A stretch of 64,000 bases of DNA, taken from positions 192,001-256,000 of the forward strand of contig CAWIYV010000011.1 of the NCBI GenBank assembly GCA_963840455.1, read 5' to 3'. A program made the translations under genes and the position numbers. Source of the stretch: Nitrospirota bacterium. GTDB taxonomy: Bacteria; Nitrospirota; UBA9217. Shown here piece by piece: positions 5,857 through 45,126 of the stretch. The number at the start of each line of letters is the position of its first letter. Within the stretch, counting starts at the first letter, position 1. The notes beneath the pieces are model-generated. The model saw only the letters and a list, made by a program, of their open reading frames with translations, was not told the DNA's origin and did not search any database.

Positions 5857-5944
5857 CGGTCATTATTATAGTATAGAAAACCCGAAACCGAAACTCCGAA
5901 CCGTCTCCTCGCAGACGTTTATTCCGCGCTACGCGATCGATTTG

Positions 5945-27830: not shown

Positions 27831-27845
27831 AATTTCCTTATTTCT

Positions 27846-28011
27846 GCCACAGAGGCGCAGAGACACAGGGAAGAACACGCCACTTGAACCGCCAAGGCCG
27901 CAAAGGTCATTATTGATTCTTATGTCGGACCTGCAAACCTTGCTTCGCGTCCTTCGCGTCTTAGCGGTAAAATAAATTTGCCTTTCCCTGTGTTCTTTGT
28001 GTCTCTGTGGC
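27846..28011. repeat. Nested inverted periodic micro-repeat pairs
   Basis: Outer GCCACAGAGGCGCAGAGACACAGGG/CCCTGTGTTCTTTGTGTCTCTGTGGC encloses inner ACCGCCAAGGCCGCAAAGG/CTTCGCGTCCTTCGCGTCTTAGCGGT. Confidence 0.75.
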
Positions 28012-28019
28012 GAATATCC

Positions 28020-29120
28020 TTAATCAAAATACAACCAGCACCGCGCCTTGTGCCCCGGCCCGATCTCGCGAAGGTCCGGCTCCTGACGCTCACATCTCTC
28101 CCGTATCTTGTCCGTCACTCTGTTGCACCGGCCGTAGAACCGGCACCCCGCCGGGATGTTGATGGTATCGAGCACATCTCCTTCGATGGCCTGGAGATGA
28201 CCCTTCCCCTTGATGTTCTCGGCGCTCGGGATGGACATGAGCAGCGCCGACGTGTAGGGATGTTTCCTGTCCTCACCCTTCGCGAGGATGTCCCTGGCCG
28301 GGCCGGTCTCGACCACGGTGCCGCCGTACATCACGGCGACCATGTCCGACAGCCGGGAGATGATGCTGATATCGTGGCTGATCAGCATGGTCGCGATGCC
28401 GAGCTCGGCCTTCAGCTCCGCCAGCAGGTCCGCGATCTTGGACTGAATGGTCGCGTCGAGGCCCGTTGTCGGCTCGTCGGCGATCAGGAGCGACGGCTCG
28501 CAGGACAGCGCCATGGCGATCATGGCCCGTTGGCACATGCCGCCCGACAGGCCGTATGGATAGTTATCGAACCGGAGCCGAGGGCTGTCGATCTTCACCC
28601 GGTCGAGCCATGATAGGGCGCGCTCCTTTGCCGCCGGTTCCTCTTTGATGGACGTATGGAGCTGGATGGCCTCGGTGATCTGCCTGCCCACGGTCATGAA
28701 AGGGTTCAGGGACTGCTTGGGGTTCTGGAAGATCATCGAGATCTCCTTGCCCCGGACCTTGGCCATGCGCCGCTCGGAAAGCTCCTGCCAGCCCTCCTCG
28801 TCCTTCTGCACGCCCATGATCCTGCCGTCCTCCCTCGTGAGCGTCACATAATCATCGAGGTCCTGCAGGATGTTCTTCTGAACGCGGTCGGACTTGAACC
28901 CGATCTTGCCGGTAATGATGCCCGGGCCCGCAGCGACCAAACCCATGATCGAGAGCGCCGTGATGCTCTTACCGCTGCCGCTCTCTCCCACCACGCCGAG
29001 CGTCTCGCCCTTTGTTATCTTGAGGCTCACACCGTCAACAGAGCGAATGAAGGCCTGCTTGCTCTTCGAGTAGAAGTAGGTCCGAAGGTCCTCTATTTTG
29101 AGGATCGGCGCCTTCATCAC
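28020..29120 (-). CDS. Oligopeptide-type ABC transporter ATP-binding protein (OppD/DppD-like)
   Basis: [25 protein letters not shown]. Confidence 0.93.
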
Positions 29121-30010
29121 TTGCTCCTCTTGCCTTCGAGAATGTTATTCAACCCGTCGCCAAGGAGGTGGAACCCGAGGATCGTGAAAAGGATGGCGAG
29201 GGACGGAGCAGTGGACGGCCAGAACTGCCCTTTCATGAAGTAGTTCGCCCCTGCCTGGACCATGTTGCCCCATGACGGGATCGGCTCCTGTACGCCGAAG
29301 CCGAGGTAGGAGAGCGATGTTTCCATCAGAATGGCCTCGCCCATGCCGAGCGTCGCCTGGATGATCAGGATGGAGCGGCAGTTGTGCCAGAGAATGTGCT
29401 TCAGGATGATGGTTCTCGTAGGAAGGCCGAGCGCGATGTCCGCCTCGATGAAATTCTTCTGCTTCAGGAACAGGACCTTCCCCTTGATGTGCGATGCGAC
29501 CGCAGGCACGTTCGTGATGCCCACGACCAGCATGATGTAGTAGATGTCCGGCTTGAACGCAGCGATCACGAGCAGGATAAGCACGAGCCGCGGGAAGGAA
29601 TCGACGAGATTGGTGAAATAGGTGATACCCATGTCCCATTTGCCGCCGCGATACCCGGCCAGCACGCCGAGCACTGTGCCGAAGAAGAGCGCGATGAAGA
29701 TCGCGAGCAATCCCGGCAGGAAGTAGGCCTGGATGCTCACGATAAGGCGCGAGAACATGTCCCGGCCCATGAAGTCCGTGCCGAGGAGATGCCCTGTCGT
29801 CAGCGGCGGCGCCATCATGAGCTCCAGGTCAATGTCCTGGGGGTCGCGCGGCAGGAGGTTGAAGGCGCCAAGGAGATAGGACACCACCACGAGCGTCACG
29901 ATCAGCAGGCCGTAGCCCACGTACGCGATGTCGATGGCGTTCGGCTTCTTCCAGAACGGCAGGTCCGAGAACTCGCCGATCTCACCGGATTGTTGGGTGT
30001 AGGATTTCAT
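29117..30010 (-). CDS. ABC transporter permease (OppC/DppC-like)
   Basis: HLLGTDFMGRD, LSYLGFG, PSWG, LGDGL. Confidence 0.93.
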   Translation of the reverse strand: MKSYTQQSGEIGEFSDLPFWKKPNAIDIAYVGYGLLIVTLVVVSYLLGAFNLLPRDPQDIDLELMMAPPLTTGHLLGTDFMGRDMFSRLIVSIQAYFLPGLLAIFIALFFGTVLGVLAGYRGGKWDMGITYFTNLVDSFPRLVLILLVIAAFKPDIYYIMLVVGITNVPAVASHIKGKVLFLKQKNFIEADIALGLPTRTIILKHILWHNCRSILIIQATLGMGEAILMETSLSYLGFGVQEPIPSWGNMVQAGANYFMKGQFWPSTAPSLAILFTILGFHLLGDGLNNILEGKRSK

Positions 30011-30295
30011 TCGAAATAACGTTCAACGCTTATTGTCGTTTTGTCTGTTTACGAAGCAACCGGAAATATATGGATTTTCAGGAGCCCTTTCGCTTTCAGG
30101 CTGAAACCGACGGGGGCTCGAACAAAGCATCATGGAGCAGCGGTCCCCGGATAGGTACAAATGGGACAGGCGTCCAGAGCATGCGACGAAGACGCGAACA
30201 GCGCTGTTTCCAAAGAATACAATCCCGCTATCCATGATATCGCTGTTTATTGGATCAAGAACGTATTCATAGTGTATCCTTTATATTTCCGGCCC

Positions 30296-31255
30296 CTATT
30301 CCTTCGACGCCCGCGGGTTCACCGCGACATACACCACGCTCTGGAACAGGCTGCCGAGGCGCACGAAGACCGCGGCGAGAATGGCAATGCCCATGATGAC
30401 CGGGAAGTCGCGGTCCTGCGCCGCCTGCCACGCCATCCTGCCCATGCCCGGCCAGTTGAACACCTGCTCAACGATGACCGCGCCGCCGAGGATGAACGGG
30501 ATCTTGGCCGCGATGATCTCGGTGACCGGGATGAGCAGCCCTTCCTTGAAGGCGTGGCCCATGACCGACGCGCCCTTGGCGCGGGCGGTGCGTATATAGT
30601 CCTCGTCCAGCACCCTCGCCATCTCATCGCGGAGCGACCGGATGACCTCGCTGATGGTCCCGTTCCCGATGCCCAGCACGAAGATGGGCAGCAGCGCATA
30701 CAGCCATTTCTGGCCGCCTGTCGCGAACCCGAAGGCCATGGGGAAGAGCCCGAGCTTGTGGGTGAAGAAGTAGATGACGATGTATCCCAGCCAGAAGACC
30801 GGCAGGGCCGAGATGATATAAGCGCCGATGGTAAGCGGCCAGGTGAGCCGCGTCATGCCGCGCCTGGCGGAGGAGAGCGCGATGGGAACGGCGAGCGCCA
30901 GGGTGATGATCAGAGAGCCGATGGTCAGAAGCAGGGTGTTCAGGCCTGTGCGCAGGACCTCCTTCAACACCGGCTGGCCCGTCCGGATTGAGGTGCCGAA
31001 GTCCCCGCGCAGCATGTTCCCGAGCCACGCGAGATACTGCCCGTACCACGACTTCTGCATGCCCATTGCCTCACGGATCCCTGCCCGCGCCGAATCCGTG
31101 GGCATCTGACCCTCCAGCAGGACGCTGAACGGGTCGCCAGGCGAGAAAAAGAGGATGATGAACACGACAAAGCTCACACCCAGGAGGAGCAGACTGGTGA
31201 TCAGCAGTTCGCGAGAAAGAACAAGGGCTATGGGCCGTATGGCGGTGAGCTTCAT
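30296..31255 (-). CDS. ABC transporter permease (OppB/DppB-like)
   Basis: PGDP, GDFGTS, DYIRTARAKG, VEQVFNWPGMG. Confidence 0.93.
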   Translation of the reverse strand: MKLTAIRPIALVLSRELLITSLLLLGVSFVVFIILFFSPGDPFSVLLEGQMPTDSARAGIREAMGMQKSWYGQYLAWLGNMLRGDFGTSIRTGQPVLKEVLRTGLNTLLLTIGSLIITLALAVPIALSSARRGMTRLTWPLTIGAYIISALPVFWLGYIVIYFFTHKLGLFPMAFGFATGGQKWLYALLPIFVLGIGNGTISEVIRSLRDEMARVLDEDYIRTARAKGASVMGHAFKEGLLIPVTEIIAAKIPFILGGAVIVEQVFNWPGMGRMAWQAAQDRDFPVIMGIAILAAVFVRLGSLFQSVVYVAVNPRASKE

Positions 31256-31273
31256 AAGTATAACAAAATAATC

Positions 31274-31411
31274 GCCACAGAGGCACAGAGGTCACAGAGG
31301 AAAAATTTCCTATGTTCTCTCCGGTCTCTGTGGCTTAAATGACTTTTATCGGGTCCTGCCATCTGCTAGAATTTACTTCCCCGTGTCACCCTGTCTCCGC
31401 GTCCCCGTGTC
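31274..31411. repeat. Inverted periodic micro-repeat pair plus a half element
   Basis: GCCACAGAGGCACAGAGGTCACAGAGG ... TCTCTGTGGC; CCGTGTCACCCTGTCTCCGCGTCCCCGTGTC. Confidence 0.7.
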
Positions 31412-31415
31412 GGGT

Positions 31416-33035
31416 TTATTTCTGGTCCTTCGTCTCAATGAACCACTCGTCGGCAAAGGAGAAGAACTTGTAGGGATGGATGGCCATGCGCCGGACCTTG
31501 TCCCGGTACGCCGCATAGTTCGTCAACGTCCAGAGGAAGGTGTAGGGGTTCTCCTCGGCGAGCAGCGCATGGAGCTTCCGGTTGATGGTGCGCCGCTTCT
31601 CGTGGTCCAGCGTGAGCTTGCTCTCGTTGATCAGGCCGTCAACCTCGGGATTGGCATACCCGCCGAAGTTGTTCTTCCAGGGCCCGATCTCGCCGGAATG
31701 GAAGAGCGACGAGATGTCCGCAGAGTCGTCGAACACCCACGACGCGAAGATGATGTCGAAGTCATGCTCCAGGAACACGTCCTCCTTCCAGGCCTGCCAT
31801 TCCTTGAACTCCACCTTGATGTCGGCGCCGATGTTCTTGAGGTAGTTCTTGAATGCCAGCACCACGCGCTTCACGGCCTCGCTCTCCTTCTCGATGGGCA
31901 CCTTGAGCGATAGGGCAAGCTTCTTGCCGTCCTTCTGCATGAACCCGTCGGCGCCCCGGGTGAACCCTGCCTCCTGCAGCAGGGCAATGGATTTCTGGGC
32001 GTCGAAGGCCGCGGGCTGTACGTCCAGATTATAGGCCCAGCTGCCCGGCGCGAAAGGCCCGGAGATGATGGTCCCCTGGCCGTTGAAGAACGAATCGAGC
32101 ATCTCCTGCCGGTTCACCGCATGGGTGAAGGCCTGGCGCACGCGCTTGTCGGCAAGGAAGGGGTTCCGAACGTTGTAGCCGAAGAACGAATAGGACAGTG
32201 CGTTGTAGGGCTTCAGCACGAACCGCTTGTCGCCCTGGATCTCGGGGATGTCCCGCGGGTTCACCAGCACGATCATGTCGATGGCGTTGAACATGAGCGC
32301 CTGGGTCATGATGTTCTGGTCGGCGAAGGGCTTCTCCGCGAACTGGTTGATGTGGGGCCGTCCCTTGAAGTAGTTGTCATTGGCGACAAGAACGATCTCC
32401 CGCTCGGGCGTGACGGTCTTGAACAGATAAGGACCGGTCCCGATGGGGTGCTGCACGAAGGGATCGTCCCGCGTCAGGAACTGCTGGTTCGCCGGACCGT
32501 GCTTCGGGATGATCTTGAAGCTGAACTTGGCCAGGGCGTTCAGGATGGGCCGCTTGAGCGTGAACTTCACGGTGGCGTCGTCCACCTTCTCGATCGCGTC
32601 GATGAACTCGTACCGCACCTTGAGGGGCGTGATGGTCTTGGGGTGCATCATGATCTTGTAGGTGAACACCACGTCGTCGGCCGTGAACGGCTTTGGCGCG
32701 GTCTCACCCTCCTTCGGGTGCCAGGTCACGTCCTTCCGGAGGAAGAAGGTGTAGGTCCGGCCGTCCTTGGAGGACTCCCACCGCTCCGCCAGCTCGGGCA
32801 CGATCTCCTGCTTCTCGTTAATGCCCACAAGGCCGTTGAAAATCAGCTCGGTGATGCGGAGCGAGATCATCTCATTGCTCGTGATGGGATCGAGCGTGGC
32901 CGGCCGGCCGTATTCCCCGTAGCTCAGGGAGCCTCCGTCGGGCCTGCCGTCATTCTTGGGGGCCGCCCCGGCAGGGGCCGTCACCAGCACGGTAAGGGTC
33001 ATGACCAGTATCAGAACCATCAGCGTCCGTTTCAT
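31416..33035 (-). CDS. ABC transporter substrate-binding protein, family 5
   Basis: Signal peptide; LDP, PELAE.W, TADDV.FT, PIGTGPY. Confidence 0.93.
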   Translation of the reverse strand: MKRTLMVLILVMTLTVLVTAPAGAAPKNDGRPDGGSLSYGEYGRPATLDPITSNEMISLRITELIFNGLVGINEKQEIVPELAERWESSKDGRTYTFFLRKDVTWHPKEGETAPKPFTADDVVFTYKIMMHPKTITPLKVRYEFIDAIEKVDDATVKFTLKRPILNALAKFSFKIIPKHGPANQQFLTRDDPFVQHPIGTGPYLFKTVTPEREIVLVANDNYFKGRPHINQFAEKPFADQNIMTQALMFNAIDMIVLVNPRDIPEIQGDKRFVLKPYNALSYSFFGYNVRNPFLADKRVRQAFTHAVNRQEMLDSFFNGQGTIISGPFAPGSWAYNLDVQPAAFDAQKSIALLQEAGFTRGADGFMQKDGKKLALSLKVPIEKESEAVKRVVLAFKNYLKNIGADIKVEFKEWQAWKEDVFLEHDFDIIFASWVFDDSADISSLFHSGEIGPWKNNFGGYANPEVDGLINESKLTLDHEKRRTINRKLHALLAEENPYTFLWTLTNYAAYRDKVRRMAIHPYKFFSFADEWFIETKDQK

Positions 33036-33226: not shown

Positions 33227-34708
33227 CTAATTGATCTTCACGTCCCCGGCGCTCTTGTGCTCCATGGAGTAGATGCCCTGCAGTGCCTCCTGGATCTGGC
33301 GCACCTCGGGGAACTGCTTGCTCATCTCAAAGTAGATCTCCAGGGCCTCGGAGAACTTCTTCGTTCGGTAATAGGCATCGGACAGGTCCACGAGCATCAC
33401 CGGGTCGTTGGACTCGATCTTGTTCTTGTTCCCCTTGTCCCTCCCTGCCTCGAGATAGGAGACGGCCTTCGCCGTATCCTTCTTCGAGAGATAGTACCTG
33501 CCCAGTCCGACGTTCAGGATGGCGAAGCGCTTGCCGTCGCCTGCCTCGACCACGCCCGCAGAGGTCTGCGCGGTGCGGGGGCAGTCGATCCTGAGCCTGC
33601 CGCAGGTCGCCAGGATGTCGGACAGGAGCTCAGGATCGCCCGGTTGTTTCTGCGTCAGTTCGTCCCATACGCCGATGGCCTCGGCATGCTTCCCCTTCTG
33701 CTGCTGCAGCGCCCCCTGGCGGACCATGGCCTTGTTCTTGAACTGCAACGGCATCTGGGGAGCAGCGAGGAACGCCGCCGTTGCCTTCGCCGCCTGGTCC
33801 GTGTTCCCGGCGAGCGCCTGGGCCTCGCCGAGGTAGTAGCTTGCGATGCCCTTGAGCTGCGGGTCCGAGGCCGCCTTCTCAAGCGATGCCAGGCTGGCCT
33901 GGAGGTAGAAAGCCGCAAGGTTCGGCAGGACCTGAAGGTCGTAGAACGTGATCACCTTGCTCTTGCTGATGGTCTCGCGGTACGAATAGGATTTCATATC
34001 CGCGCGCTGAAGAAGGTCGAGACCCTTGTCGAGGGACCCCGCCCGTGCGTACACGCCCAGGCAGTTCTTCGCAGCAATGAGGGACAGCGGTTTGCCGCCC
34101 TTCTTGACGTCCGCCAGCGCCTCGTCGCACAGGGCGACGGGATCTTTTTCAACGAGGCCCGCCCTGCTGTACGCAGCGGCAAGCTCGGTCTTTACATCGG
34201 GATCGGAACTGTTGATGCCGCCCCAGAGCTCTTGCGCCTTCTGCTTGTCCCCTCTCACGTTGGCCGCCGTTCCCAGCGCGATTTTTGCTATGGCCTTGTA
34301 CCTGGCACCGCCGCCTCCGGCGAGGAACTTCTCGAGCGGTGCCTGCGCAGGCGCCGCCTTCCCGCCCTCCAACAGCGCGAGCCCGAGGTACAGGTCGCTG
34401 TACATGCTGCGGCCCGCGCCACGGTCCGACGAGAGCCGCTTCAGATAATCGGCGTTCACCTCCGCGGACATCTGCGCCAGCCCCTGGTGCAGCTCGCCGT
34501 TCTTAAGGTAGATCATGCCGAGGGTGAGCCGGGCCGGAGACTGCTTGCTCTGCTCCAGAGACGGGAGCGCTGCGCGGAGGTCGCGCGCAGCGTCCTCGTA
34601 CCGGTGCTTCTCATAGGCCTTCATGGCCTTCTGGACCGGATCGTCGGCGGCATGGGCCGGACATGCGGCCAGACCTATGCTTAAAATCAGAAAGAAAACC
34701 ACGTACAT
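33227..34708 (-). CDS. Exported tetratricopeptide repeat protein
   Basis: Signal peptide; repeated LG..Y...G...A helical motifs. Confidence 0.85.
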   Translation of the reverse strand: MYVVFFLILSIGLAACPAHAADDPVQKAMKAYEKHRYEDAARDLRAALPSLEQSKQSPARLTLGMIYLKNGELHQGLAQMSAEVNADYLKRLSSDRGAGRSMYSDLYLGLALLEGGKAAPAQAPLEKFLAGGGGARYKAIAKIALGTAANVRGDKQKAQELWGGINSSDPDVKTELAAAYSRAGLVEKDPVALCDEALADVKKGGKPLSLIAAKNCLGVYARAGSLDKGLDLLQRADMKSYSYRETISKSKVITFYDLQVLPNLAAFYLQASLASLEKAASDPQLKGIASYYLGEAQALAGNTDQAAKATAAFLAAPQMPLQFKNKAMVRQGALQQQKGKHAEAIGVWDELTQKQPGDPELLSDILATCGRLRIDCPRTAQTSAGVVEAGDGKRFAILNVGLGRYYLSKKDTAKAVSYLEAGRDKGNKNKIESNDPVMLVDLSDAYYRTKKFSEALEIYFEMSKQFPEVRQIQEALQGIYSMEHKSAGDVKIN

Positions 34709-34884: not shown

Positions 34885-36098
34885 TCACTCTTTCATTCTT
34901 GCCACGAAGATCTGGTCCCACTGGTCCACTTGTGCCCGGAACGCTATGGTCCCGTCGGGCGAGCACGCCACGTCGTGGTTCATCTTGGTGTCGGTCTTGA
35001 GGAGCCAGGGCGTTCTCTCCGCTATGTTCACCACATAGAGGGGGTGGTATTCCTGCCGGTCGTTCTTTACGTACACGAGCCTCTTGCTGTCGTGCATCCA
35101 CGCGGGCCCGCGCTCCACGTCGGGGACCACATCGACGGCCACGGCCTTCGCAGCGAGCCCGTCACCCGTTGCCGGGTCCGAGCCGTCCGCGGCGACCACC
35201 ATGATGGACCAGATCCGCGGGTCGCCCTGCGGATTGTAGTTCGAATAGAAAGCGATCTTCTTCCCGTCAGGCGACCAGACCGGACGGATGTCGTCGTGTT
35301 CCCATGCCGTGAGCGCCTTGACCGATTCCGCAGGCCTGCTCACGTCGTTGATGACCGCTATGTCGTGGTTCTCGTTGTTCCCGTGCATATAGACGATCCG
35401 CTTACCGTCCGGCGACCACTGGGGATAGAGATTTTCTTTCCCGCTGTGGGTGAGCCGCGTCAGCGCGCGGGTGCCTGCGTCCATGAGGTAGATATCTCCC
35501 TTGTCCGTCCGGCCCGACACGAACACGATCGTGTTCGATGACGGCGACCAGTCGGACTGGCCGTCCTTCTCCTTGTGCTCCGTGATGCGGGTGACCGGCT
35601 TGCCGCCCATGTCGCCGACATAGAGGTCATAATTCCCTTCACCGCCGTTGCTCATGAACACAAAGCGCTCCTCACGCGGCGACCAGGAGATGCCGGCGTT
35701 GTAGCTGATGTCCTCCACCACGCCGGGGAAGAAGAACTTCATGTCCCCGCCTGCTGCGCGCAGATAATAGACGGTCTGGAACACCAGGCCGTCCGCCAGG
35801 GCGATGTGGATCTCCTTCTTGTCTCCGATGCTGCGCTCGAATGAGAGGAACATCCCCGAACGGGACCAGACGGGATTGCCGTCATTCCTGCCGGACTCGA
35901 CCGCGGTGAAAGGCCGGACAAAGACCGGTTCGATCGTCCCGACCTTCCTGACCGGCTCCTCGGGAACCGTCTGGGCAGGCAACACTGCCGGCGCTGCGTC
36001 CTCCGCGCCGACGCACCGTGCCGCCGCGATCAGCGCCAGGAGGCACCACGCCGCGATTCCGGACCCCCGTCCCCCTCTTTTCGATCAGCAGGCGTCAT
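34885..36098 (-). CDS. TolB-like (PD40) beta-propeller protein; N-terminal signal peptide is out of frame with ATG 36098 by one base near G5 runs
   Basis: Multiple P.WSPDG repeats; in-frame upstream GIAAWCLLALIAAA segment; one added base at 36064-36075 restores the start. Confidence 0.8.
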
Positions 36099-36107
36099 AC
36101 CCTACCG

Positions 36108-38675
36108 TTACAAGCTCCTGATCTGGTCCCAGTATTTCTGGGCGGCCTGGCGGCTCTGCTCATAGGTGCTGTTCCCTTCAAGCTTTTTCGGGAAGAAGTC
36201 GAAGTACTCGCGCCACGCCGTATTTGCGTCGTTCAGCACCGTGGCCTTTTTCGTGATCAGATACAGCTTATGGTACGAGAGCGCCAGATAATAATAGGTG
36301 TCGTGCAGGGCCTCGTCATACCGCATCGTCGGGAAGAACCGCGTGTTCTGCTTGGCGATCTGGAGCTTCTGGATTGCCAGGGCAAAGTTCTGGGCCGCCG
36401 CCTGCTTGTCCGTTGCCACCAGCGCGTTGCCCTTCTCGTAATAGGCATGGCCCAGGTTGGCGAAGGCCACGGAGAACTGCTTGTAGATCAGCTGCTGGTT
36501 CTCGGGAAGGGACAGCACGTTCTCGAACTCCCGAATGGCCGCGTCGTAGTCGTTCTTGTCGTCGAGGTAGATCGTGGCCAGCCGGTGGTGCGACTCGGAA
36601 TAGTCGGGATGGCCCTTTTCCGTGCTGCGGTATGCGGCGATGGCCCCGTCAATATCGCCTTTCTGCTCCGCGTTCTCTCCGATCTTCAGGAAGTCCCTGT
36701 AGAGCACAATGGCCTTGCCGCCCGTGCGGTCCTCGGTCTTCGAGGCGAACTCGACCACCTCTTCCCAGTCGCGGTAGTCGCCGCCCAGGGAGATCCTCAC
36801 GGTATGGAATCCGAGGGTCACGGGCCTGCCATCAATGACGGGCGTCCTGCCGATCTTGTCCCCATCAACGTAGACATCGGCGCCTGAGGGCTGCGAATCC
36901 ACCTTGAACAGGGCATTGTTCACCGTGAGGGTATATTCCTTCACATCCCGGCTCTTCTCGACCTGCAACTTGCCGCTCACCTGCTGGTAGCCGTGGCGGT
37001 AGAGCACCAGGTCGTACTTCTTGCCGAGCCGGACCGGCACTTCGGCCTTGCCGTCCGCGCCGGTCGTGCTGATCCACTCGTCGTTCATGTAGATGTTCAC
37101 TCCGGCGAGCGGTGTCACGTCTGGCGGCACGCCGCCTTTCGTGGACAGGACGACCGTGTTCTTTTCCTGCTCCTCGTCCTCGCGGATGGCCACGCGGACG
37201 ACCCGGTCGCCAAGCGATATCTTCTCGCCTTTTTTCAGGTTCTCCACCTCGGTGACCGAGAACGTATCATCGACCTTCTTCACCTTCAGCCGGCCGATCT
37301 CCCGGTAGCCGGAGATCTTGCCCGACTCGTCCAGCCCCGGCGTCATGACGCTGAATTCCATGCCCTTGCCGATCTTGTACGCCGTCTTGCCGAGGTTGAT
37401 CGTGGGGCGTTCCTCCTGGGGTTCGATCACGGTCCCCTCGAAGGGAAACTTGGCCAGCACCGCGGCGGCGATGTCCTTGGCCGCGCTCCCGATGCTCCCC
37501 TCGTTCCTGGCCCGTGCCAGCTGGCTGTGAAGGAGCTTGCCGCCGGACGTATAGAACTTGGTCTCGATCAGGATCCCGCTGTCGTCCTTGGCAACGCTGC
37601 CCAGCACGATCATGTCCACGGTCCTTTTGAGCGGCGTTTCGCGCCAGCCCTTGACCGTGATCTTCTCGATGTTCAGCTTCGCCTGCTTCATCTCTGCCTG
37701 GAGCGTCTTGGACGGCACTTCCTTGAAACAGCCGAACTTGAAGAGCTGGCTGCCCACGGCTTCCTCGGTCTGGGCGACGATGTCCTTCATGTCCACGTTC
37801 GGCGTGTTGCCCACAAAGCGGTAGATCCCGGTCCGGATGGGCCTGGCCGTGGTGGGATAGAAATAGTGCTGAACCGCGATCTCGCCTTCGAGCGTCAGCG
37901 ACTTCTTCCAGCTCGGGGGGATGTAGCCCGGCGCCGTGATGACGACCGTGACCTTCTTGCCTGGCTCGCCGTCGTAGGTCCAGTTCACTGCTCCCTTGGC
38001 GTCGGTCTTGAGCGCCTTCTTGTCGATCGTGACCGAAAGACCCTGAAGTCCGGTGGACTGGCCGTATTCCTCCGTAAGCGCCGTCACGGTCACGACCACC
38101 CGCTTCGAGAGCGCTGCCTCGATCCGCTGTCCTGGTTCGATACTGCCGGTCCGCTTCCAGACAGCATAGCCCGCCTTCGACACGGTGAGCTCCACCCCTT
38201 CCTTGGGAAGCGATTGATAATCATACACGAACTCTCCATTCGCACCGGTCTTCCCGGCCTCCTTGCCCGCAGCCTTGACCACGGCATCGGCAATGGGCGC
38301 TCCCTTTTCCGTCGCCACGATCGTGACGAAACGCGTGGCAGCGAGCTCGGCATCGAAGACATACCGGTCCATTCCCTCTTTCTGCGGGAGCTTCATCACG
38401 AAGGCGGTCTTCCATGGGGATATCCGGTAGCCCGGCATCTCCTTGGTCACGACCACCGTCACCTCGGCCCCCGGCTTCTTGGTGAGGACCTTGACGAAGG
38501 AGCCGTCGCTGCCGGTCAAACCCTCCTCCACGCCGTCGACCGCGACCCGCGCCTGGGCCACGGGCTGGCCGTCGATCTTTGCCTTGACCTCAAGGCCCAT
38601 CTTCTCGCCGGCGCATCCGGAGAACAGGAACGATGCTGCCGCAATCACGACCGCAATGAACACTCGCTTGACCAT
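36108..38675 (-). CDS. Large lipoprotein with repeated beta-sandwich/PEGA domains and C-terminal TPRs
   Basis: Lipobox FSGC; repeated G.T..DG motifs; PEGA VDSQPSGADVYVDG..IGRTP; TPR helices. Confidence 0.85.
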   Translation of the reverse strand: MVKRVFIAVVIAAASFLFSGCAGEKMGLEVKAKIDGQPVAQARVAVDGVEEGLTGSDGSFVKVLTKKPGAEVTVVVTKEMPGYRISPWKTAFVMKLPQKEGMDRYVFDAELAATRFVTIVATEKGAPIADAVVKAAGKEAGKTGANGEFVYDYQSLPKEGVELTVSKAGYAVWKRTGSIEPGQRIEAALSKRVVVTVTALTEEYGQSTGLQGLSVTIDKKALKTDAKGAVNWTYDGEPGKKVTVVITAPGYIPPSWKKSLTLEGEIAVQHYFYPTTARPIRTGIYRFVGNTPNVDMKDIVAQTEEAVGSQLFKFGCFKEVPSKTLQAEMKQAKLNIEKITVKGWRETPLKRTVDMIVLGSVAKDDSGILIETKFYTSGGKLLHSQLARARNEGSIGSAAKDIAAAVLAKFPFEGTVIEPQEERPTINLGKTAYKIGKGMEFSVMTPGLDESGKISGYREIGRLKVKKVDDTFSVTEVENLKKGEKISLGDRVVRVAIREDEEQEKNTVVLSTKGGVPPDVTPLAGVNIYMNDEWISTTGADGKAEVPVRLGKKYDLVLYRHGYQQVSGKLQVEKSRDVKEYTLTVNNALFKVDSQPSGADVYVDGDKIGRTPVIDGRPVTLGFHTVRISLGGDYRDWEEVVEFASKTEDRTGGKAIVLYRDFLKIGENAEQKGDIDGAIAAYRSTEKGHPDYSESHHRLATIYLDDKNDYDAAIREFENVLSLPENQQLIYKQFSVAFANLGHAYYEKGNALVATDKQAAAQNFALAIQKLQIAKQNTRFFPTMRYDEALHDTYYYLALSYHKLYLITKKATVLNDANTAWREYFDFFPKKLEGNSTYEQSRQAAQKYWDQIRSL

Positions 38676-38771
38676 GGAAAGCCTCCTCGGGAACTGTTAC
38701 CTAGTGAACAGCAGAGCTCGGAAACACAATATTCAATTTCCATACGACCTGCAATCGGACGGTTTGACGCA

Positions 38772-39221
38772 CTACATCGTCGGCGGCTGGATGTTCACCT
38801 CGCCGGGGTTCACGATCTTGTCCTCGTCGGACCGGGACCCCTCAATGGACTTCCGCTTGCCTTCGGCGATCTTCTTGAGCTTGAACTCCACCTTCTTGCC
38901 GCCGAACTTCGTGATCTCCACGGTCTGGGTGTCGGTCTGGTACCCGATCCTGCTCGCCTCAACCTTGTACATGCCCGGCGTGAGCTTCCCCTTCTCCGAC
39001 TCGAACTTGCCTTCTTTGTTCACCGTCACGGCATGGGAAGCCTGTTCGAGGGTGGAGGTGGTGTTGATCATGTTCACCACCGTGCCCTCCGGGCTCTCCT
39101 TCGCGGGCGGGATAGGCTGCATAGTGGGGTCCATGAGCTGGAGCGTGCCGTAGATCTTCGGCGAGCATGCGGACAACAGGAGCAGACAGGCGATCAGGGC
39201 GAACTTCTGAGTGTGGCGCAT
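38772..39221 (-). CDS. Lipoprotein with a carboxypeptidase-regulatory-like (prealbumin-fold) domain
   Basis: Lipobox LSAC; PGMYKVEASRIGY; RBS AGGAGG. Confidence 0.8.
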   Translation of the reverse strand: MRHTQKFALIACLLLLSACSPKIYGTLQLMDPTMQPIPPAKESPEGTVVNMINTTSTLEQASHAVTVNKEGKFESEKGKLTPGMYKVEASRIGYQTDTQTVEITKFGGKKVEFKLKKIAEGKRKSIEGSRSDEDKIVNPGEVNIQPPTM

Positions 39222-39276
39222 GATATTCTTCCTCCTGGGCGTAATGGGCGTTGTCGGTCCCGGCGAATGCAGACAC

Positions 39277-39332
39277 AAAAAAACCGCCAAAGTCTATATC
39301 CAACGGATGTTAGAATACTTGGACTTTGGCGG
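39277..39332 (-). terminator. Intrinsic terminator (riboswitch expression platform)
   Basis: CCGCCAAAGTC...GACTTTGGCGG followed by T7; 5' arm overlaps aptamer P1. Confidence 0.8.
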
Positions 39333-39433
39333 CCCGACTGGCGTATAAACCGGAACCTCGATGATCTGAAGCGGTTTTCTGTAGCCTCGGTGCTCTGCGT
39401 CCCCGGGTTTCCCCGGGTTTGCTCTGAGCAAAG
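39324..39433 (-). ncRNA. GEMM-I (c-di-GMP-I class) riboswitch, A20 variant
   Basis: CTTTGCTCAGAGCAAACCCGGGGAAACCCGGGGACGCAGAGCACCGAGGCTAC...TACGCCAGTCGGGCCGCCAAAG: P1 CTTTG/CAAAG, GAAA-capped P2, P3. Confidence 0.85.
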
Positions 39434-39551
39434 TTCTTATTATGTACGCTTTACCTGCAATTAATTCGTCATACTGTAGCATTTGCGCTGATCGATGTCA
39501 AGACTGCTTGTACGTGAAAGGAGCTCCGCGAAAAAAAAAGCCCTCGGGCGG

Positions 39552-40424
39552 TCAGGCCGGTCCCCGGGCGGACTTTTTCGCCTGCTTCTGTTCATACATT
39601 TGGGCATCGGCCTGCCGGATCAGCTCATCCACGGTAATGGGCCTGGCCGGATCGAATATGGCGAGACCCAGGCTCACCGAGAGGCGAAACGTGCCTTCCC
39701 GGCGGGCATTGTACTCGACAAAACGCTTCTCGAGACGGTCCCGTACCGTAGCGATGCCCGAGTCAGGCGCATTGCCGAGGATCACCGCGAACTCATCGCC
39801 GCCCATGCGGGCGATGATATCGGAATCACGAAAGGTCTCGCGGAAGATCTGGGCAGTGTCCGCCAGGGCCCGGTCGCCGGATACGTGACCGAAGGTGTCA
39901 TTGATGGACTTGAGATCGTCCAGGTCGGCGAAGAACAGCACCATGCGCTCGCTGTTCCGCACCGCATGCCTCATCTGCTGCTGCGTGAAGGCAAAGAACC
40001 CGCGCCGGTTCGCAAGGCCCGTCAGCTCATCGGTGATCGCGAGCGCCCGCAGGTGGTCCTGCAGTTTCCCGTGCTTGATCCGCACCAGGAGCTCATGGAC
40101 CGTGAACGGCTTCCTGATGAAGTCCGCTGCCCCGGCCCGGATGGACTCTTCGTAGGAAAATTCCTCGACGAACCCAGTCATGACGATGGCCGTCATATCG
40201 GGATGGATGCGCTTGGCCCTGTCCACCAGATCGAGCCCCCGTATCCCCGGCATAACGATGTCCGTGAGCAGGATATCGGGATGAGTCCGCTCCAGTGCCG
40301 CCAGGGCGTCCTCGGACCGCGTGAAGGCCTCACAGGTGTAGCCCTCCATACAGAGGGACTGCCGGAGGATGTCCAGGATGGCCACGTCGTCGTCGACGAT
40401 CATGATAGAGGGGTTCTTATTCAT
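39552..40424 (-). CDS. Response regulator receiver + GGDEF diguanylate cyclase
   Basis: DD, LLTD.VMP, KP; INDTFGHVSGD; RDSD I-site; GGDEF. Confidence 0.95.
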   Translation of the reverse strand: MNKNPSIMIVDDDVAILDILRQSLCMEGYTCEAFTRSEDALAALERTHPDILLTDIVMPGIRGLDLVDRAKRIHPDMTAIVMTGFVEEFSYEESIRAGAADFIRKPFTVHELLVRIKHGKLQDHLRALAITDELTGLANRRGFFAFTQQQMRHAVRNSERMVLFFADLDDLKSINDTFGHVSGDRALADTAQIFRETFRDSDIIARMGGDEFAVILGNAPDSGIATVRDRLEKRFVEYNARREGTFRLSVSLGLAIFDPARPITVDELIRQADAQMYEQKQAKKSARGPA

Positions 40425-40505
40425 GGGGTGTGCTCCGGGATACGCGAAACGCACTCGGGATACGGCCGCATTGTAGCATAGAACCCGTCTCCGAGGGCAT
40501 AAACG

Positions 40506-40763
40506 TCACGCTCCTGCCTTCCGCCCCTGCGTGTCCGGGGAGCTGCCCGAAGAAGACCTCTTGTTCCGAAAAGAGAGGAAGGCGCCGAGGAACGCCATGG
40601 CCGAGACGAACAGGAAGAACCAGCCCGCGACCTTGAACAACAGCCCCGCAAGGCCTTGCCCCGCTGCCGTAGGATCGATCCCGAGCAGGAGCAGGCCAAG
40701 CGCGCCGATGATGGATCCTGCCGCCACTCCTACCACCGGTCGTCGTGATACGATCCCAGCCAT
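40506..40763 (-). CDS. Small two-TM membrane protein
   Basis: RBS AAGGAG; two hydrophobic segments. Confidence 0.55.
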   Translation of the reverse strand: MAGIVSRRPVVGVAAGSIIGALGLLLLGIDPTAAGQGLAGLLFKVAGWFFLFVSAMAFLGAFLSFRNKRSSSGSSPDTQGRKAGA

Positions 40764-41474: not shown

Positions 41475-42986
41475 TCAGACAGCGCCACGGCCGGCCCGGA
41501 GGGCCTTTTCGTGCATCCGGAAGACCTTGCGGAAATGGAACCCGTAGATGGAGAGGGTGATGGCGAGCGGGAAGAGCCGCGGCCGCCTGAAGAGCGACCA
41601 GAAGAAGAGCTTCCAGTACTGATAGCGCTCCCTGCCGATGATGCCGAGGCGCACCGCGGACTTGAAACCTGCAATGATGTAATTGAACCGGATCGGGCCT
41701 CGCCGCACCTGCGGCGGATGGTACTCCCGAAGGAACGTCCTGATGCGCGCATAATATTTCTTCGGCGAATAGATCGTGCCCAGGATCTTCCGGTAGCCGG
41801 CGATCAGCGCATCGGTGTTCATCTTGGGGATGAAATTGATGGAGAAGTCGGTGTTGTCCCCCGTCACGGAATTAAGGAGCCTGCCCTCCTCTTTCAGACG
41901 ATGATAGAGTTTGGTCCCCTTCGGCGCGTTCAGGAGCCCGACCATGGCCGTGGCGATCCCACTTTCCTGGATGAAGGCGATCAGGCGCTCAAAGATCGCG
42001 GCAGGGTCCTTGTCGAAACCCACGATGAATCCCGCCTGGACCTCCAGACCGGCGCGCTGGATCTTTTTCACGCTCTCAATCAGGTCGCGGTTCCGGTTCT
42101 GGAGCTTGCTGCATTCGGCGAGGCTCTCTTCGTTCGGCGACTCGATGCCCACAAAGACCTGGTCGAATCCCGCCTTGACCATGAGCTGCATCAGTTCCTC
42201 ATCATCGGCAAGATTGATGGACACCTCGGTGTAGAGCGCAAATGGGTGTTTCCGCTTCTCCATCCAGGCGATGATGGCCGGAAGCACTTCCTTCTTGAGC
42301 TTTCCCTTGTGGCCAATGAAGTTGTCATCAACGATGAAAACGCTGTTCCGCCAGCCCCGTGCGTAGAGAGCCTCGAGCTCGGCGATGACCTGGACCGCGG
42401 CCTTGGTCCGCGGCACGCGGCCGAAGAGCACGGTGATGTTGCAGAAGTCGCAGTCGAACGGACAGCCCCGCGAATACTGGATGTTCATGGAAGCGTACTT
42501 CTTCATGTTCAGCAGATCGAAGCGCGGAACCAACGTCGCGGAGAGGTCCGCCCAGCCGGACGCGGTATAGAGGCGCTTCGGCTGTCCCTTCGCAAGGTCC
42601 TGGAGGAACAGCGGCATCGTGAGCTCCGCTTCGTTCAGCACAAGATGGTCCACATGGCCGTAGTCCTCCGGATGCGCGGTGAACAGCGGGCCCCCGGCGA
42701 TCACCTTTACGCCGAGCGTTGTGCACTGGCTGATGATGGCATCCGCGGATGCGCGCTGGATGGACATGGCACTGATGAGAACATAGTCGGCCCATAGCAG
42801 GTCGGCATCCCTGAGCGGCTTGACGTTCAGGTCAACGAGGCGCTGTTCCCACTCAAGGGGAAGCATGGCGGCCACGGTAATGAGCCCCAGCGGTGGAAGG
42901 CTTGCCTTCTTGGAGATGAACTTGAGGGCGTACTTGAAACTCCAGAACGTTGTGGGGTATTGAGGATAGACGAGCAGGACCTTCAT
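41475..42986 (-). CDS. B12-binding radical SAM protein (DUF4070 type)
   Basis: PPLGLITVAAMLP, SRGCPFDCDFC, VDDNFIG, GFIVGFD. Confidence 0.92.
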   Translation of the reverse strand: MKVLLVYPQYPTTFWSFKYALKFISKKASLPPLGLITVAAMLPLEWEQRLVDLNVKPLRDADLLWADYVLISAMSIQRASADAIISQCTTLGVKVIAGGPLFTAHPEDYGHVDHLVLNEAELTMPLFLQDLAKGQPKRLYTASGWADLSATLVPRFDLLNMKKYASMNIQYSRGCPFDCDFCNITVLFGRVPRTKAAVQVIAELEALYARGWRNSVFIVDDNFIGHKGKLKKEVLPAIIAWMEKRKHPFALYTEVSINLADDEELMQLMVKAGFDQVFVGIESPNEESLAECSKLQNRNRDLIESVKKIQRAGLEVQAGFIVGFDKDPAAIFERLIAFIQESGIATAMVGLLNAPKGTKLYHRLKEEGRLLNSVTGDNTDFSINFIPKMNTDALIAGYRKILGTIYSPKKYYARIRTFLREYHPPQVRRGPIRFNYIIAGFKSAVRLGIIGRERYQYWKLFFWSLFRRPRLFPLAITLSIYGFHFRKVFRMHEKALRAGRGAV

Positions 42987-43055
42987 GAGAGCTCCTTTGT
43001 TGTGCACGTACAGCGTGCGGTGGATGCCAGGGTATCCGGAGTACCGCCGGAGCCG

Positions 43056-44330: not shown

Positions 44331-45047
44331 TCACCGGGCATCGCCCGGCACGATGTCGGAGGTCAGCTGTTCCTCGATGAAGTTCCGCAGGAACTTCCGG
44401 TCCTCGTCCGTGATCTCGAGGAACTTCAGGCCCATCCCGGCTTCCCTCCTCACCCCGCCTTCCTGCGTGTGGCTGTAGAGCACGACGGCCGTCGCCTTGA
44501 TCTCACGGTCCTTGACGAATATCCTGACCGGTGTTATGGCGTCCTTCGGCCGGAGAACCGTGGTATTGAGGTAAAGCCCGCCTTCCGAGATCATCGTGGC
44601 CTGCGCGGCCCGATCGACATCGTCCACAACCGCTTTCAGGGACGTCCCCAGCCGGATATTCGAGCGCGGCATGCTCTCCGTAGCGGCCTGGATCTCCCGG
44701 TAGAGGCGGGCGGGCTCCACGGGCTTTGTCAGGAAGCTCGTACAGCCGAGATCAAGGCAGATCTTCCTGGCAGCCGCGTCCTTCTCGCCCGTCAGGACGA
44801 TAACGGGCACGTTCCTTGTGCGTTCCAAGCTTTTCAGCTTCTTGATAAAGTCGCTGCCGCTCATCATGGGGAACCGGAATCCGCTCAGAACACAGGAGGG
44901 GATGGTGTGTTCCAGGATCATCAGCGCTTCCTCAGGCGACGCTGCTGTCAGGATCGCGTACGTGAGCCGCGTCAGGAGCATCCCATGGTAGTAGCGAAGG
45001 GTCGTGCTCTTGTCCACGAGCATTATCGATCTGGTTGCTCTCTCCAT
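44331..45047 (-). CDS. Pseudo-receiver + PilZ domain protein
   Basis: REC-like domain without phospho-Asp (CVLSG); RSNIR; MISEGG; GMGLKF. Confidence 0.8.
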   Translation of the reverse strand: MERATRSIMLVDKSTTLRYYHGMLLTRLTYAILTAASPEEALMILEHTIPSCVLSGFRFPMMSGSDFIKKLKSLERTRNVPVIVLTGEKDAAARKICLDLGCTSFLTKPVEPARLYREIQAATESMPRSNIRLGTSLKAVVDDVDRAAQATMISEGGLYLNTTVLRPKDAITPVRIFVKDREIKATAVVLYSHTQEGGVRREAGMGLKFLEITDEDRKFLRNFIEEQLTSDIVPGDAR

Positions 45048-45126
45048 AGGTTCTACTCCTTTTCGCGCTGAGCTCCCAGGAGCGCACAGGTACCCCGTTC
45101 CCTTTATCATAAGGAATGCCGCTGTG

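What the first reader, a model, noticed from the sequence alone, without database searches (positions are those of the whole stretch)
39277..39433. GEMM-I riboswitch with the cGAMP-type A20, wired as an ON switch, next to a canonical GGDEF gene
Seen: CAGAGCAAA versus Vc2 CAGGGCAAA, i.e. A at position 20 (window 39423). The P1 3' strand (CAAAG) is also the 5' arm of the terminator, so ligand binding should block termination. Established: G20A marks GEMM-Ib riboswitches that prefer 3',3'-cGAMP, made by Hypr GGDEFs with Ser/Thr in place of the GHxxGD Asp. The adjacent REC-GGDEF keeps that Asp, so it is predicted to make c-di-GMP. Inference: cGAMP signalling from a Hypr enzyme elsewhere, or dual-ligand control.
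Basis: partly seen in the sequence, partly recalled or inferred. Interest (0 to 1): 0.78.

Follow-up and report, generated by a model that had tools for sequence, protein, structure and literature searches.

The report
Cyclic-dinucleotide ON riboswitch, A20 variant
A real, conserved GEMM-I cyclic-dinucleotide riboswitch from uncultured Nitrospirota switches on a cell-envelope gene cluster, but its one unusual base (A20) does not show whether it senses cGAMP or c-di-GMP.

Summary
Rfam finds one c-di-GMP-I (GEMM-I) aptamer at 39433..39324 on the minus strand (51.3 bits, cut-off 35). The base at the G20 position is A (39423). The last 10 aptamer bases form the 5' arm of a strong terminator, so ligand binding should prevent termination (ON). 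The upstream REC-GGDEF keeps the canonical Asp.

New here:
- The window's relatives are uncultured Nitrospirota, not Geobacter.
- The same riboswitch and terminator precede the same lipoprotein/PEGA-TPR/TolB-like/TPR/ABC-transporter cluster in 29 other genomes.
- A20 is present in 30 of 30, and stem covariation supports the fold.

The cGAMP reading is only partly supported:
- Published natural and engineered A20 aptamers often bind both ligands, and one prefers c-di-GMP.
- The P2 closing pair here is the c-di-GMP-I consensus G-C, unlike the two characterised cGAMP-selective Geobacter aptamers.
- All 15 readable GGDEF genes in about 1.2 Mb of related DNA, and 120 of 120 orthologues of the neighbouring gene, have Asp.

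My best reading is a c-di-GMP-responsive, probably dual-ligand, ON switch (0.5). cGAMP-selective gets 0.3. It is a new member of a known kind.

The parts
39473..39501 (-). Sigma-70-like promoter, TTGACA-17 nt-TACAGT with TG before the -10. It lies about 40 nt upstream of the aptamer, so the riboswitch unit has its own start downstream of the GGDEF gene.
   Evidence: 10 of 12 matches, the only promoter-like site in 38600-40600 (shuffles average 0.6). This is a consensus match only; the transcription start is not shown.
39324..39433 (-). GEMM-I (c-di-GMP-I class) aptamer, 110 nt: P1 (CUUUG/CAAAG), P2 hairpin with GAAA tetraloop, and P3 with a receptor-like CUA...UAU and a variable tip.
   Evidence: Rfam 51.3 bits, cut-off 35. 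(own model, 114.6 bits). (88.9% of 870 pair cells are standard pairs against 28-47% when partners are slid; compensatory changes in P2 and P3).
39423..39423 (-). A at the position of Vc2 G20, the base that reads the first ligand base.
   Evidence: alignment (model position 11, G in the consensus). A in 29 of 29 aligned copies and in L048.
39395..39396 (-). J2/3: A (39396, the intercalating-A47 position) followed by G (39395), where the Rfam consensus has a conserved A.
   Evidence: CGCAGAGC in 30 of 30. The opposite strand has C where the consensus has U. Either A.C is a mismatch in 29 of 29, or G39-C103 pairs with a bulged A (my inference).
39329..39329 (-). C at the position of Vc2 C92, the Watson-Crick partner of the ligand's G. 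It is also inside the terminator's 5' arm.
   Evidence: alignment. Invariant. Pairs with G in the terminator.
39283..39333 (-). Intrinsic terminator hairpin. Its 5' arm GCCGCCAAAGUC overlaps the 3' strands of P3 and P1. Its 3' arm begins with CUUUG, the same letters as the P1 5' strand.
   Evidence: -26.6 kcal/mol. The 9-bp core is paired in 97.7% of 261 cells across 29 copies but does not covary. The inner stem varies in sequence and length yet always folds.
39277..39283 (-). U7 tract of the terminator.
39231..39236 (-). AGGAGG ribosome-binding site, 9 nt before the ATG at 39221. It lies 41 nt downstream of the last U (39277) of the terminator's U-tract and takes no part in the switch.
38772..39221 (-). 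First controlled gene: a 149-aa lipoprotein (signal peptide ending LLSAC) with a CarboxypepD_reg-like domain.
   Evidence: 30.6 bits, just under Pfam's 32.3 cut-off. Present directly downstream in 29 of 29 riboswitch loci.
36108..38675 (-). 855-aa lipoprotein with CarboxypepD_reg and PEGA domains and C-terminal TPR. The middle part gives a weak CsgG/LpoB-like lead only.
   Evidence: (Atlas scores 0.84-0.88, below the 0.9 level, so a lead only). for relatives.
34885..35985 (-). TolB-like PD40 beta-propeller protein (start codon uncertain).
   Evidence: Syntenic in 29 of 29 riboswitch loci.
33227..34708 (-). 493-aa TPR protein (YbgF/CpoB-like repeats). It is followed by a conserved Opp/Dpp-type ABC transporter (26823-33035).
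   Evidence: TPR is syntenic in 28 of 29 and the solute-binding protein in 26 of 29 riboswitch loci. Co-transcription is inferred only; the gaps are 96-191 nt.
39552..40424 (-). Upstream neighbour: REC-GGDEF diguanylate cyclase with Asp at the Hypr-defining position, an RxxD I-site and GGDEF. The likely ATG is at 40424; the open frame runs from GTG at 40454.
   Evidence: 120 of 120 listed homologues have Asp. An A9/U9-flanked hairpin follows the stop codon, but it folds no better than shuffles (z -0.6).

Best explanation
This is a transcriptional ON riboswitch of the c-di-GMP-I (GEMM-I) class, in an uncultured Nitrospirota bacterium.

Mechanism. A promoter just downstream of the REC-GGDEF gene starts a leader whose first 110 nt fold into the three-helix aptamer. 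Without ligand, the last 10-12 aptamer bases (GCCGCCAAAG, including the ligand-pairing C) are captured by the downstream CUUUGGCGG. A -27 kcal/mol hairpin with U7 forms and transcription stops. With a 3',3' cyclic dinucleotide bound, P1 and the base of P3 hold those bases during the roughly 30-nt window before the 3' arm is made. The polymerase then reads into a lipoprotein / PEGA-TPR lipoprotein / TolB-like / TPR (and probably peptide ABC transporter) envelope cluster.

Ligand (inferred, not shown). I expect the A20 pocket to bind both c-di-GMP and 3',3'-cGAMP. I expect c-di-GMP, for example from the adjacent canonical REC-GGDEF, to be the signal that acts in this organism. A20 would then tune affinity rather than switch specificity.

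Status of the steps. The aptamer fold, A20, the terminator overlap and conservation are shown by sequence. Termination control, ligand identity and co-transcription of the cluster are inferred.
For: Aptamer: (51.3 bits against a cut-off of 35).

Conservation:
- A motif search and my own covariance model (973 bases, 81 sources) find 30 strong copies: the window plus 29 loci.
- 28 of those loci were used to build the model. L048 is independent and Rfam confirms it at 51.1 bits.

Fold:
- 88.9% of cells are paired, against at most 46.9% when partners are slid.
- 41 cells change on both sides (0 of 500 shuffles reach this).
- Pair 48/135 is A-U in 12 copies and G-C in 12.
- The GAAA loop, C35 and G96 are invariant.

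ON logic: the terminator shares 10-12 nt with the aptamer. It folds at -15.9 to -29.9 kcal/mol in 29 of 29 copies. In 28 of 29 full-length MFE structures CCGCCAAAG pairs downstream. The same design is published for the pilM ON switch, where the terminator sequesters the C75/C92-equivalent (PMC9262584).

For c-di-GMP or dual ligand:
- Vc2 G20A and the natural A20 aptamer Cbe 1-2 bind c-di-GMP at 53 and 30 nM (PMC6140456).
- The P2 closing pair is G-C in 29 of 29, as in the c-di-GMP-I consensus. It is C15-G40 in Gs1761 (PMC6274999) and U15.G38 in pilM (PMC9262584).
- A canonical REC-GGDEF lies directly upstream in 8 of 30 riboswitch copies, and a GGEEF gene lies upstream of the riboswitch-less cluster in 7 Burkholderiales-type loci.
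- 15 of 15 readable GGDEF ORFs in the window and 80 loci have Asp, as do 120 of 120 homologues.
Against: - A20 is kept in 30 of 30 copies, across cluster proteins that have diverged to about 53% identity. If only c-di-GMP mattered, the commoner and tighter-binding G might be expected in some. However, 56 of 110 aptamer positions are equally invariant.
- Two copies sit in MAGs labelled Geobacteraceae and Desulfuromonadales (L023, L048). cGAMP riboswitches and Hypr GGDEFs are established in that group.
- GGDEF adjacency holds in only 8 of 30 copies. Other copies have unrelated upstream genes.
- The G at position 48 and the C opposite it are unexamined changes next to the pocket.
- The GGDEF census covers only about 18 kb per genome, so a Hypr enzyme or a CD-NTase elsewhere is not excluded.
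- No binding or termination data exist.
- The terminator core shows no covariation because its 5' arm is fixed by the aptamer.
Confidence: 0.5

Rival explanations
1. It is a cGAMP-selective GEMM-Ib riboswitch, as in Geobacter. cGAMP made by a Hypr GGDEF (or a CD-NTase) elsewhere in the genome turns on the envelope cluster. The adjacent canonical cyclase is unrelated, or acts only through cross-inhibition.
For: - A20 in 30 of 30 copies.
- ON-switch terminator design identical in logic to pilM (PMC9262584).
- The same riboswitch and cluster occur in two Desulfuromonadales-labelled MAGs.
- GacA, the known cGAMP synthase, is itself a REC-GGDEF regulated by c-di-GMP at its I-site (PMC6456294), so a nearby c-di-GMP cyclase need not conflict.
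Against: - A20 alone does not give selectivity (PMC6140456).
- Lower P2 is G-C, not the C-G or U.G of the two characterised selective aptamers (PMC6274999; PMC9262584).
- The J1/2 base at the position where Gs1761 A11 contacts the ligand is C here (PMC5888326). This mapping is my own alignment by eye.
- No Ser/Thr GGDEF among 15 readable GGDEF ORFs or 120 homologues.
- Hypr GGDEFs are described as deltaproteobacterial (PMC6456294).
- Searches for Hypr GGDEF or GEMM together with Nitrospir* found no relevant paper.
Confidence: 0.3
2. It is a specificity variant for another ligand. The lineage-specific G at position 48 and the C opposite it, together with A20, would retune the pocket to a different dinucleotide (for example c-di-AMP-like, a linear dinucleotide or a modified CDN).
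For: - AGA instead of the conserved AAA in J2/3, and C instead of U opposite, in 30 of 30 and 29 of 29 copies.
- With lax thresholds the best-E-value family is the variant model c-di-GMP-I-GGC (47.5 bits). Known variants of this fold therefore exist.
Against: - The three direct ligand readers are A, A, C, the published cGAMP/bispecific set.
- The GGC model's own cut-off (59) is not reached, and its G20 and G47 are absent.
- The G/C change can be read as a compensatory A-U to G-C swap of the first P3 pair, using the Gs1761 register A42-U73 (PMC6274999). That would be neutral.
Confidence: 0.07
3. The aptamer is real but acts as an OFF switch or at translation, or it is a decaying relic.
For: One relative (L026) does carry a disrupted copy, so decay occurs in this family.
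Against: - Aptamer and terminator share 10-12 nt and cannot coexist, which rules out OFF.
- The RBS is 41 nt downstream of the last U (39277) of the terminator's U-tract and pairs with nothing in the MFE.
- All tertiary-contact bases are invariant and the stems covary.
Confidence: 0.03

Closest known systems
Geobacter GEMM-Ib cGAMP riboswitches (pilM/Gm0970 of G. metallireducens; Gs1761 upstream of pgcA in G. sulfurreducens)
   Same: - Same fold and same Rfam family.
- A at position 20, with A47- and C92-equivalents kept.
- Transcriptional ON switch in which the terminator sequesters the ligand-pairing C and the P1 3' strand (PMC9262584).
- Controls envelope or extracellular proteins.
   Different: - The host is Nitrospirota.
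- The P2 closing pair is G-C here, against C-G (Gs1761, PMC6274999) and U.G (pilM, PMC9262584).
- J2/3 has A-G, not a single A.
- P3 is long and variable (26-90 nt tip).
- The regulated cluster (PEGA/TPR, TolB-like) does not appear under that name in the G. sulfurreducens expression table ('PEGA' 0 hits).
- No Hypr GGDEF was found nearby.
- I could not obtain the Geobacter sequences themselves for a direct alignment.
[quoted passage not shown]
   Same: A20 in an otherwise c-di-GMP-I-consensus pocket (G-C at the base of P2). They bind both ligands at 30-460 nM through a protonated adenine (PMC6140456).
   Different: Different phyla. Their expression platforms were not compared. They have no G48/C90 change, as far as the consensus shows. 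That the Vc2 sequence matches the consensus at these positions is recalled, not checked by a call.
c-di-GMP-I-GGC variant (Rfam RF03167)
   Same: Same clan and fold. It is the best-E-value model in the lax scan.
   Different: The score of 47.5 is below its cut-off of 59. Its consensus has G at position 20 and G at position 47, where this RNA has A and A.

Membership tests
c-di-GMP-I / GEMM-I riboswitch (RF01051) | Covariance-model score at or above the curated gathering score over the full model | tested here: met
   51.3 bits against 35, model positions 1-87 of 87, E 4.1e-07.
c-di-GMP-I / GEMM-I riboswitch (RF01051) | Three-helix junction with GNRA tetraloop hairpin and receptor helix, supported by covariation | tested here: met
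   GAAA invariant. 8 pairs change on both sides (41 cells; 0 of 500 shuffles reach the cell count or the covariation score, though 139 of 500 reach the count of pairs). 88.9% paired against at most 46.9% when slid.
c-di-GMP-I / GEMM-I riboswitch (RF01051) | Ligand-contacting bases G20, A47, C92 | tested here: not met
   The A47 and C92 equivalents are present, but position 20 is A. So it belongs to the fold family but lacks the canonical c-di-GMP pocket.
c-di-GMP-I / GEMM-I riboswitch (RF01051) | Binds c-di-GMP | not testable with these tools
   No binding assay was possible. Published A20 aptamers do bind it (PMC6140456).
GEMM-Ib (cGAMP riboswitch subclass) | A at position 20 | tested here: met
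   30 of 30 copies.
GEMM-Ib (cGAMP riboswitch subclass) | Selective binding of 3',3'-cGAMP over c-di-GMP | not testable with these tools
   This feature defines the subclass functionally and needs in-line probing or ITC.
GEMM-Ib (cGAMP riboswitch subclass) | Lower-P2 context of the characterised selective members (pyrimidine 3' of A20: C15-G40 or U15.G38) | tested here: not met
   G12-C37 in 29 of 29. This is a feature of two characterised members (PMC6274999, PMC9262584), not a formal definition.
GEMM-Ib (cGAMP riboswitch subclass) | A cGAMP synthase (Ser/Thr-type Hypr GGDEF or CD-NTase) in the same genome | tested here: inconclusive
   None in the 64-kb window or among the GGDEF ORFs of 80 related loci (15 of 15 readable have Asp, 1 truncated). 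Whole genomes were not available.
c-di-GMP-I-GGC variant (RF03167) | Score at or above 59 bits; G at positions 20 and 47 | tested here: not met
   47.5 bits; A at both positions.
Hypr GGDEF (for the neighbouring gene) | Ser/Thr in place of the guanine-reading Asp (GacA Ser348), together with GGDEF | tested here: not met
   GHVSGD with GGDEF. 120 of 120 homologues have Asp. S348D makes GacA a diguanylate cyclase (PMC6456294).
Intrinsic (Rho-independent) terminator | G+C-rich hairpin directly followed by a U tract | tested here: met
   -26.6 kcal/mol with U7. Present in 29 of 29 aligned relatives (a few have interrupted U tracts such as CUUUCU).

The most novel reading that the evidence does not exclude
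A lineage of uncultured Nitrospirota uses 3',3'-cGAMP as a second messenger. Under this reading the conserved A20/G48 GEMM-I subtype is a cGAMP-selective ON switch, shared with some Desulfuromonadales. It governs an envelope lipoprotein/TolB-like/peptide-transporter cluster rather than cytochromes or pili. That would extend Hypr-type cGAMP signalling beyond the former Deltaproteobacteria and to a new kind of target.
Probability: 0.27. Interest if true: 0.65.

Novelty: new member of a known kind. Interest (0 to 1): 0.4.

Why it matters
cGAMP riboswitches are the only RNA readers known for bacterial 3',3'-cGAMP. They led to the discovery of Hypr GGDEF enzymes in Geobacter. An A20 aptamer conserved in at least 26 Nitrospirota species-level genomes, always in front of the same uncharacterised envelope cluster, is a clean test case. 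Three questions are open:
- Does A20 outside Geobacter mean cGAMP, dual sensing, or only weaker c-di-GMP sensing?
- Which residues besides A20 set selectivity (lower P2, position 48)?
- What does this widespread PEGA/TPR/TolB-like/ABC cluster do? In other phyla it sits next to diguanylate cyclase genes instead of a riboswitch.

If the ligand is simply c-di-GMP, this is an ordinary riboswitch annotation.

Tried and rejected
1. Primary papers were not held: Kellenberger 2015, Nelson 2015, Ren 2015 and Hallberg 2016. What I say about them comes from later papers that cite them. Any list of selectivity determinants or of A20 frequencies in them, and in their supplements, stayed unseen.

2. Geobacter aptamer sequences could not be obtained for a direct alignment. 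They are not in the main texts, and the supplement of PMC9262584 was unreadable.

3. I looked for the regulated cluster in the known G. sulfurreducens cGAMP regulon. 'PEGA' has 0 hits in the supplements of PMC8835794 and PMC6456294. GSU1761 is pgcA.

4. Rfam at gathering threshold on seven riboswitch-less orthologous loci plus L048 found only the L048 copy. So no G20 or class-II riboswitch replaces it there.

5. The upstream neighbours of 19 riboswitch loci are unrelated housekeeping genes. GGDEF adjacency is therefore specific to a subclade.

6. An Atlas look-alike search of the middle of the 855-aa protein scored 0.84-0.88 (CsgG/LpoB-like). That is a lead only.

7. The hairpin after the GGDEF stop codon folds no better than shuffles. 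Independent termination of the GGDEF transcript is therefore not shown.

8. The PilZ domains of the two REC-PilZ proteins have RxxxR but not the canonical D/NxSxxG. I do not use them as evidence.

9. I did not run the representative-protein search or a structure prediction. Neither would find a Hypr enzyme in this genome.

Full report
OBSERVATION. Rfam release 15 at gathering threshold finds a single family in the whole window: c-di-GMP-I (RF01051) at 39433..39325, 51.3 bits against a cut-off of 35, E 4.1e-07, full model. Model position 11 is the unpaired G immediately 5' of the two-pair base of the first hairpin. I map it to Vc2 G20 from recall, consistent with the numbering described in PMC6140456. 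It aligns with top posterior to A at 39423. The bases at the A47 and C92 positions are A (39396) and C (39329). A lax scan of 39200-39560 puts the variant family c-di-GMP-I-GGC first by E-value (47.5 bits). That is below its own cut-off of 59, and its consensus G at positions 20 and 47 is A here.

EXPRESSION PLATFORM. CUUUG (39433-39429) pairs with CAAAG (39328-39324) as P1. The 12 bases GCCGCCAAAGUC (39333-39322) cover the end of P3, the ligand-pairing C and the P1 3' strand. They form the 5' arm of a hairpin whose 3' arm begins CUUUGGCGG and runs into U7 (39283-39277). The hairpin alone is -26.6 kcal/mol. It dominates the MFE of the 181-nt leader (-69 kcal/mol, z -5.8), and the pattern scan also lists it. 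Aptamer and terminator cannot coexist, so a bound ligand must favour read-through. Because the terminator is far more stable than P1, the decision must be made during transcription. About 29 nt separate the end of P1 from the start of the 3' arm. This is the design described for the G. metallireducens pilM cGAMP riboswitch, whose terminator sequesters the C75 (C92-equivalent) residue (PMC9262584, passages read). A sigma-70-like promoter (TTGACA-17-TACAGT, 39501-39473) lies between the GGDEF stop codon and the aptamer. An AGGAGG site and the ATG at 39221 follow the terminator.

SURROUNDINGS.
- Upstream, same strand: a 290-aa REC-GGDEF with NDTFGHVSGDRAL, an RDSD I-site and GGDEF.
- Downstream: a 149-aa lipoprotein with a CarboxypepD_reg-like domain, then an 855-aa lipoprotein with CarboxypepD_reg, PEGA and TPR, then a TolB-like PD40 propeller, a YbgF-like TPR protein and an Opp/Dpp-type ABC transporter.
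- The window holds no other GGDEF, no EAL or HD-GYP, and two REC-PilZ genes.

WHOSE GENOME. Homologues of the 855-aa protein that carry a source name are called Nitrospirota MAG proteins. A scan of one genome per species returned 80 loci. The closest is 95% identical in protein (L038, a Nitrospirae MAG). So this is not Geobacter.

CONSERVATION. A motif search found the same leader in 28 loci. A covariance model built from these plus the window was run over all 81 sources, 1,206,973 bases in total. It recovered its 29 training sequences at 104-126 bits, which is expected by construction, and one new copy, L048 (95.4 bits). Rfam independently scores L048 at 51.1 bits. I did not run Rfam on the other 28.

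Of the 65 loci whose contig reaches about 1 kb or more upstream of the cluster, 29 carry the riboswitch. I dropped 15 loci as too short: L008, 011, 012, 016, 021, 027, 034, 042, 043, 047, 056, 057, 058, 063 and 080. The carriers are 26 of the 27 loci labelled Nitrospir*, plus one each labelled Betaproteobacteria, Geobacteraceae and Desulfuromonadales. On a quick maximum-likelihood tree of the 855-aa protein (66 rows), presence needs 3 changes against a shuffled mean of 22. The Proteobacteria/Rokubacteria clade and a Thermodesulfobacteriota-labelled group lack the riboswitch. Rfam finds no other riboswitch in seven of those loci.

FOLD SUPPORT.
- On the 29-sequence alignment, 88.9% of 870 pair cells are standard pairs, against 28-47% when partners are slid by 1-3 columns.
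- 41 cells change on both sides (0 of 500 shuffles reach this). The count of pairs with such a change, 8, is reached by 139 of 500 shuffles.
- Clear cases are P2 pairs 19/30, 20/29 and 22/27, and P3 pair 48/135 (A-U 12, G-C 12).
- P1 and the 9-bp terminator core never covary, because they are invariant.
- The inner terminator stem differs in sequence and length in every lineage. It still folds at -15.9 to -29.9 kcal/mol in 29 of 29 copies. In 28 of 29 the full-length MFE pairs CCGCCAAAG downstream; L005 is split 4 to 5. L048 was not processed in that script.
- The gene order (lipoprotein, PEGA/TPR, PD40, TPR, solute-binding protein) is kept in 29, 29 (by the anchor), 29, 28 and 26 of the 29 riboswitch loci.

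LIGAND. A20 is present in 30 of 30 copies. Two further departures from the Rfam consensus are equally fixed. One is G at position 48 (CGCAGAGC, 30 of 30). The other is C where the consensus has the U that pairs with A49 (A.C in 29 of 29). With the register reported for Gs1761 (J2/3 is a single A, P3 starts A42-U73; PMC6274999), these two changes can be read as one compensatory swap of the first P3 pair, A-U to G-C. That is my inference.

What the accessible literature says about A20:
- The engineered Vc2 G20A binds c-di-GMP at 53 nM and cGAMP at 120 nM.
- The natural Cbe 1-2 binds c-di-GMP at 30 nM and cGAMP at 463 nM.
- Even Gs1761 showed only about threefold selectivity in one buffer.
- The authors speak of widespread bispecific binding (PMC6140456, passages read).
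- Selectivity also depends on point mutations in lower P2 (PMC9262584, citing Ren 2015). That pair is C15-G40 in Gs1761 (PMC6274999) and U15.G38 in pilM (PMC9262584). Here it is the c-di-GMP-I consensus G-C in 29 of 29 copies.

Context points the same way, though weakly:
- The adjacent cyclase is canonical. S348D converts GacA to a diguanylate cyclase (PMC6456294).
- All 120 listed homologues of the adjacent cyclase have Asp.
- A local phmmer search over all ORFs of the window and the 80 loci found 16 GGDEF ORFs. Of these, 15 are readable at that position, all with Asp, and 1 is truncated.
- A REC-GGDEF sits directly upstream of the riboswitch in 8 of 30 copies. A GGEEF gene sits upstream of the riboswitch-less cluster in seven Burkholderiales-type loci. 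The cluster has thus become linked to diguanylate cyclases at least twice.

Against my reading:
- A20 never reverts to G.
- Two carriers are labelled Desulfuromonadales.
- Only about 18 kb per genome was examined.
- Upstream genes in the other copies are unrelated.

VERDICT. The feature is real and functional-looking, and its ON logic is well supported by sequence. It belongs to the GEMM-I fold family. Membership of the cGAMP-selective subclass cannot be decided from sequence. I put 0.5 on a c-di-GMP-responsive, probably dual-ligand switch, 0.3 on cGAMP selectivity, and the remainder on another ligand or another mode of action. Full-text searches found no paper that links GEMM-I, cGAMP riboswitches or Hypr GGDEFs with Nitrospirota. 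That library lacks most subscription papers and the four primary papers.

Noticed in passing
L026:6831-7360: The one Nitrospirota-labelled locus without a scored riboswitch carries a broken copy. Its 5' half has GGGG before GCAAAC (G at positions 18-20) and a GAGC loop instead of GAAA. About 430 nt of unrelated sequence follow, then the normal 3' half (GUCGAGCCGCCAAAG) and a weakened terminator. This looks like an insertion into P3 followed by decay. My model scores it only 16.2 bits.
   Followed up: partly
L068, L070, L071, L073, L074, L077, L079 (about 5500-7150 in the full-length loci): In Burkholderiales-type relatives the same envelope cluster has no riboswitch. Instead a roughly 490-aa GGEEF (Asp-type) gene lies directly upstream. 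This is a second, independent link between the cluster and diguanylate cyclases.
   Followed up: partly
window 26823-33035 (minus strand): The Opp/Dpp-type ABC transporter downstream of the TPR gene is syntenic in 26 of 29 riboswitch loci. Its solute-binding protein is 80-98% identical, far more conserved than the lipoproteins (53-95%). It may be the functional core of the cluster.
   Followed up: partly
window 5083-5856 and 44331-45110 (minus strand): Two paralogous REC-PilZ proteins. Both have RxxxR but a hydrophobic residue in place of D/N in the D/NxSxxG motif, so c-di-GMP binding is uncertain.
   Followed up: partly
window 12042-14915 (minus strand) and 10826-11245 (plus strand): A 957-aa Eco57I/MmeI-like type IIG restriction-modification fusion next to a TumE-family toxin ORF. 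GC3 is lower (0.55-0.61) than in the surrounding genes, which suggests a small defence or mobile island.
   Followed up: no
window 25641-26585 (minus strand), 24097-25509 (plus strand): A rhodanese-rubrerythrin fusion protein beside two further rhodanese-domain genes.
   Followed up: no
window 41475-43007 (minus strand): A B12-binding radical SAM protein with DUF4070, two genes upstream of the REC-GGDEF.
   Followed up: no
L014 (labelled Betaproteobacteria), L070 (labelled Enterobacteriaceae): The MAG labels disagree with the tree position of the 855-aa protein. L014 nests among Nitrospirota and L070 among Burkholderiales. The likely cause is binning or labelling error rather than gene transfer.
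   Followed up: no
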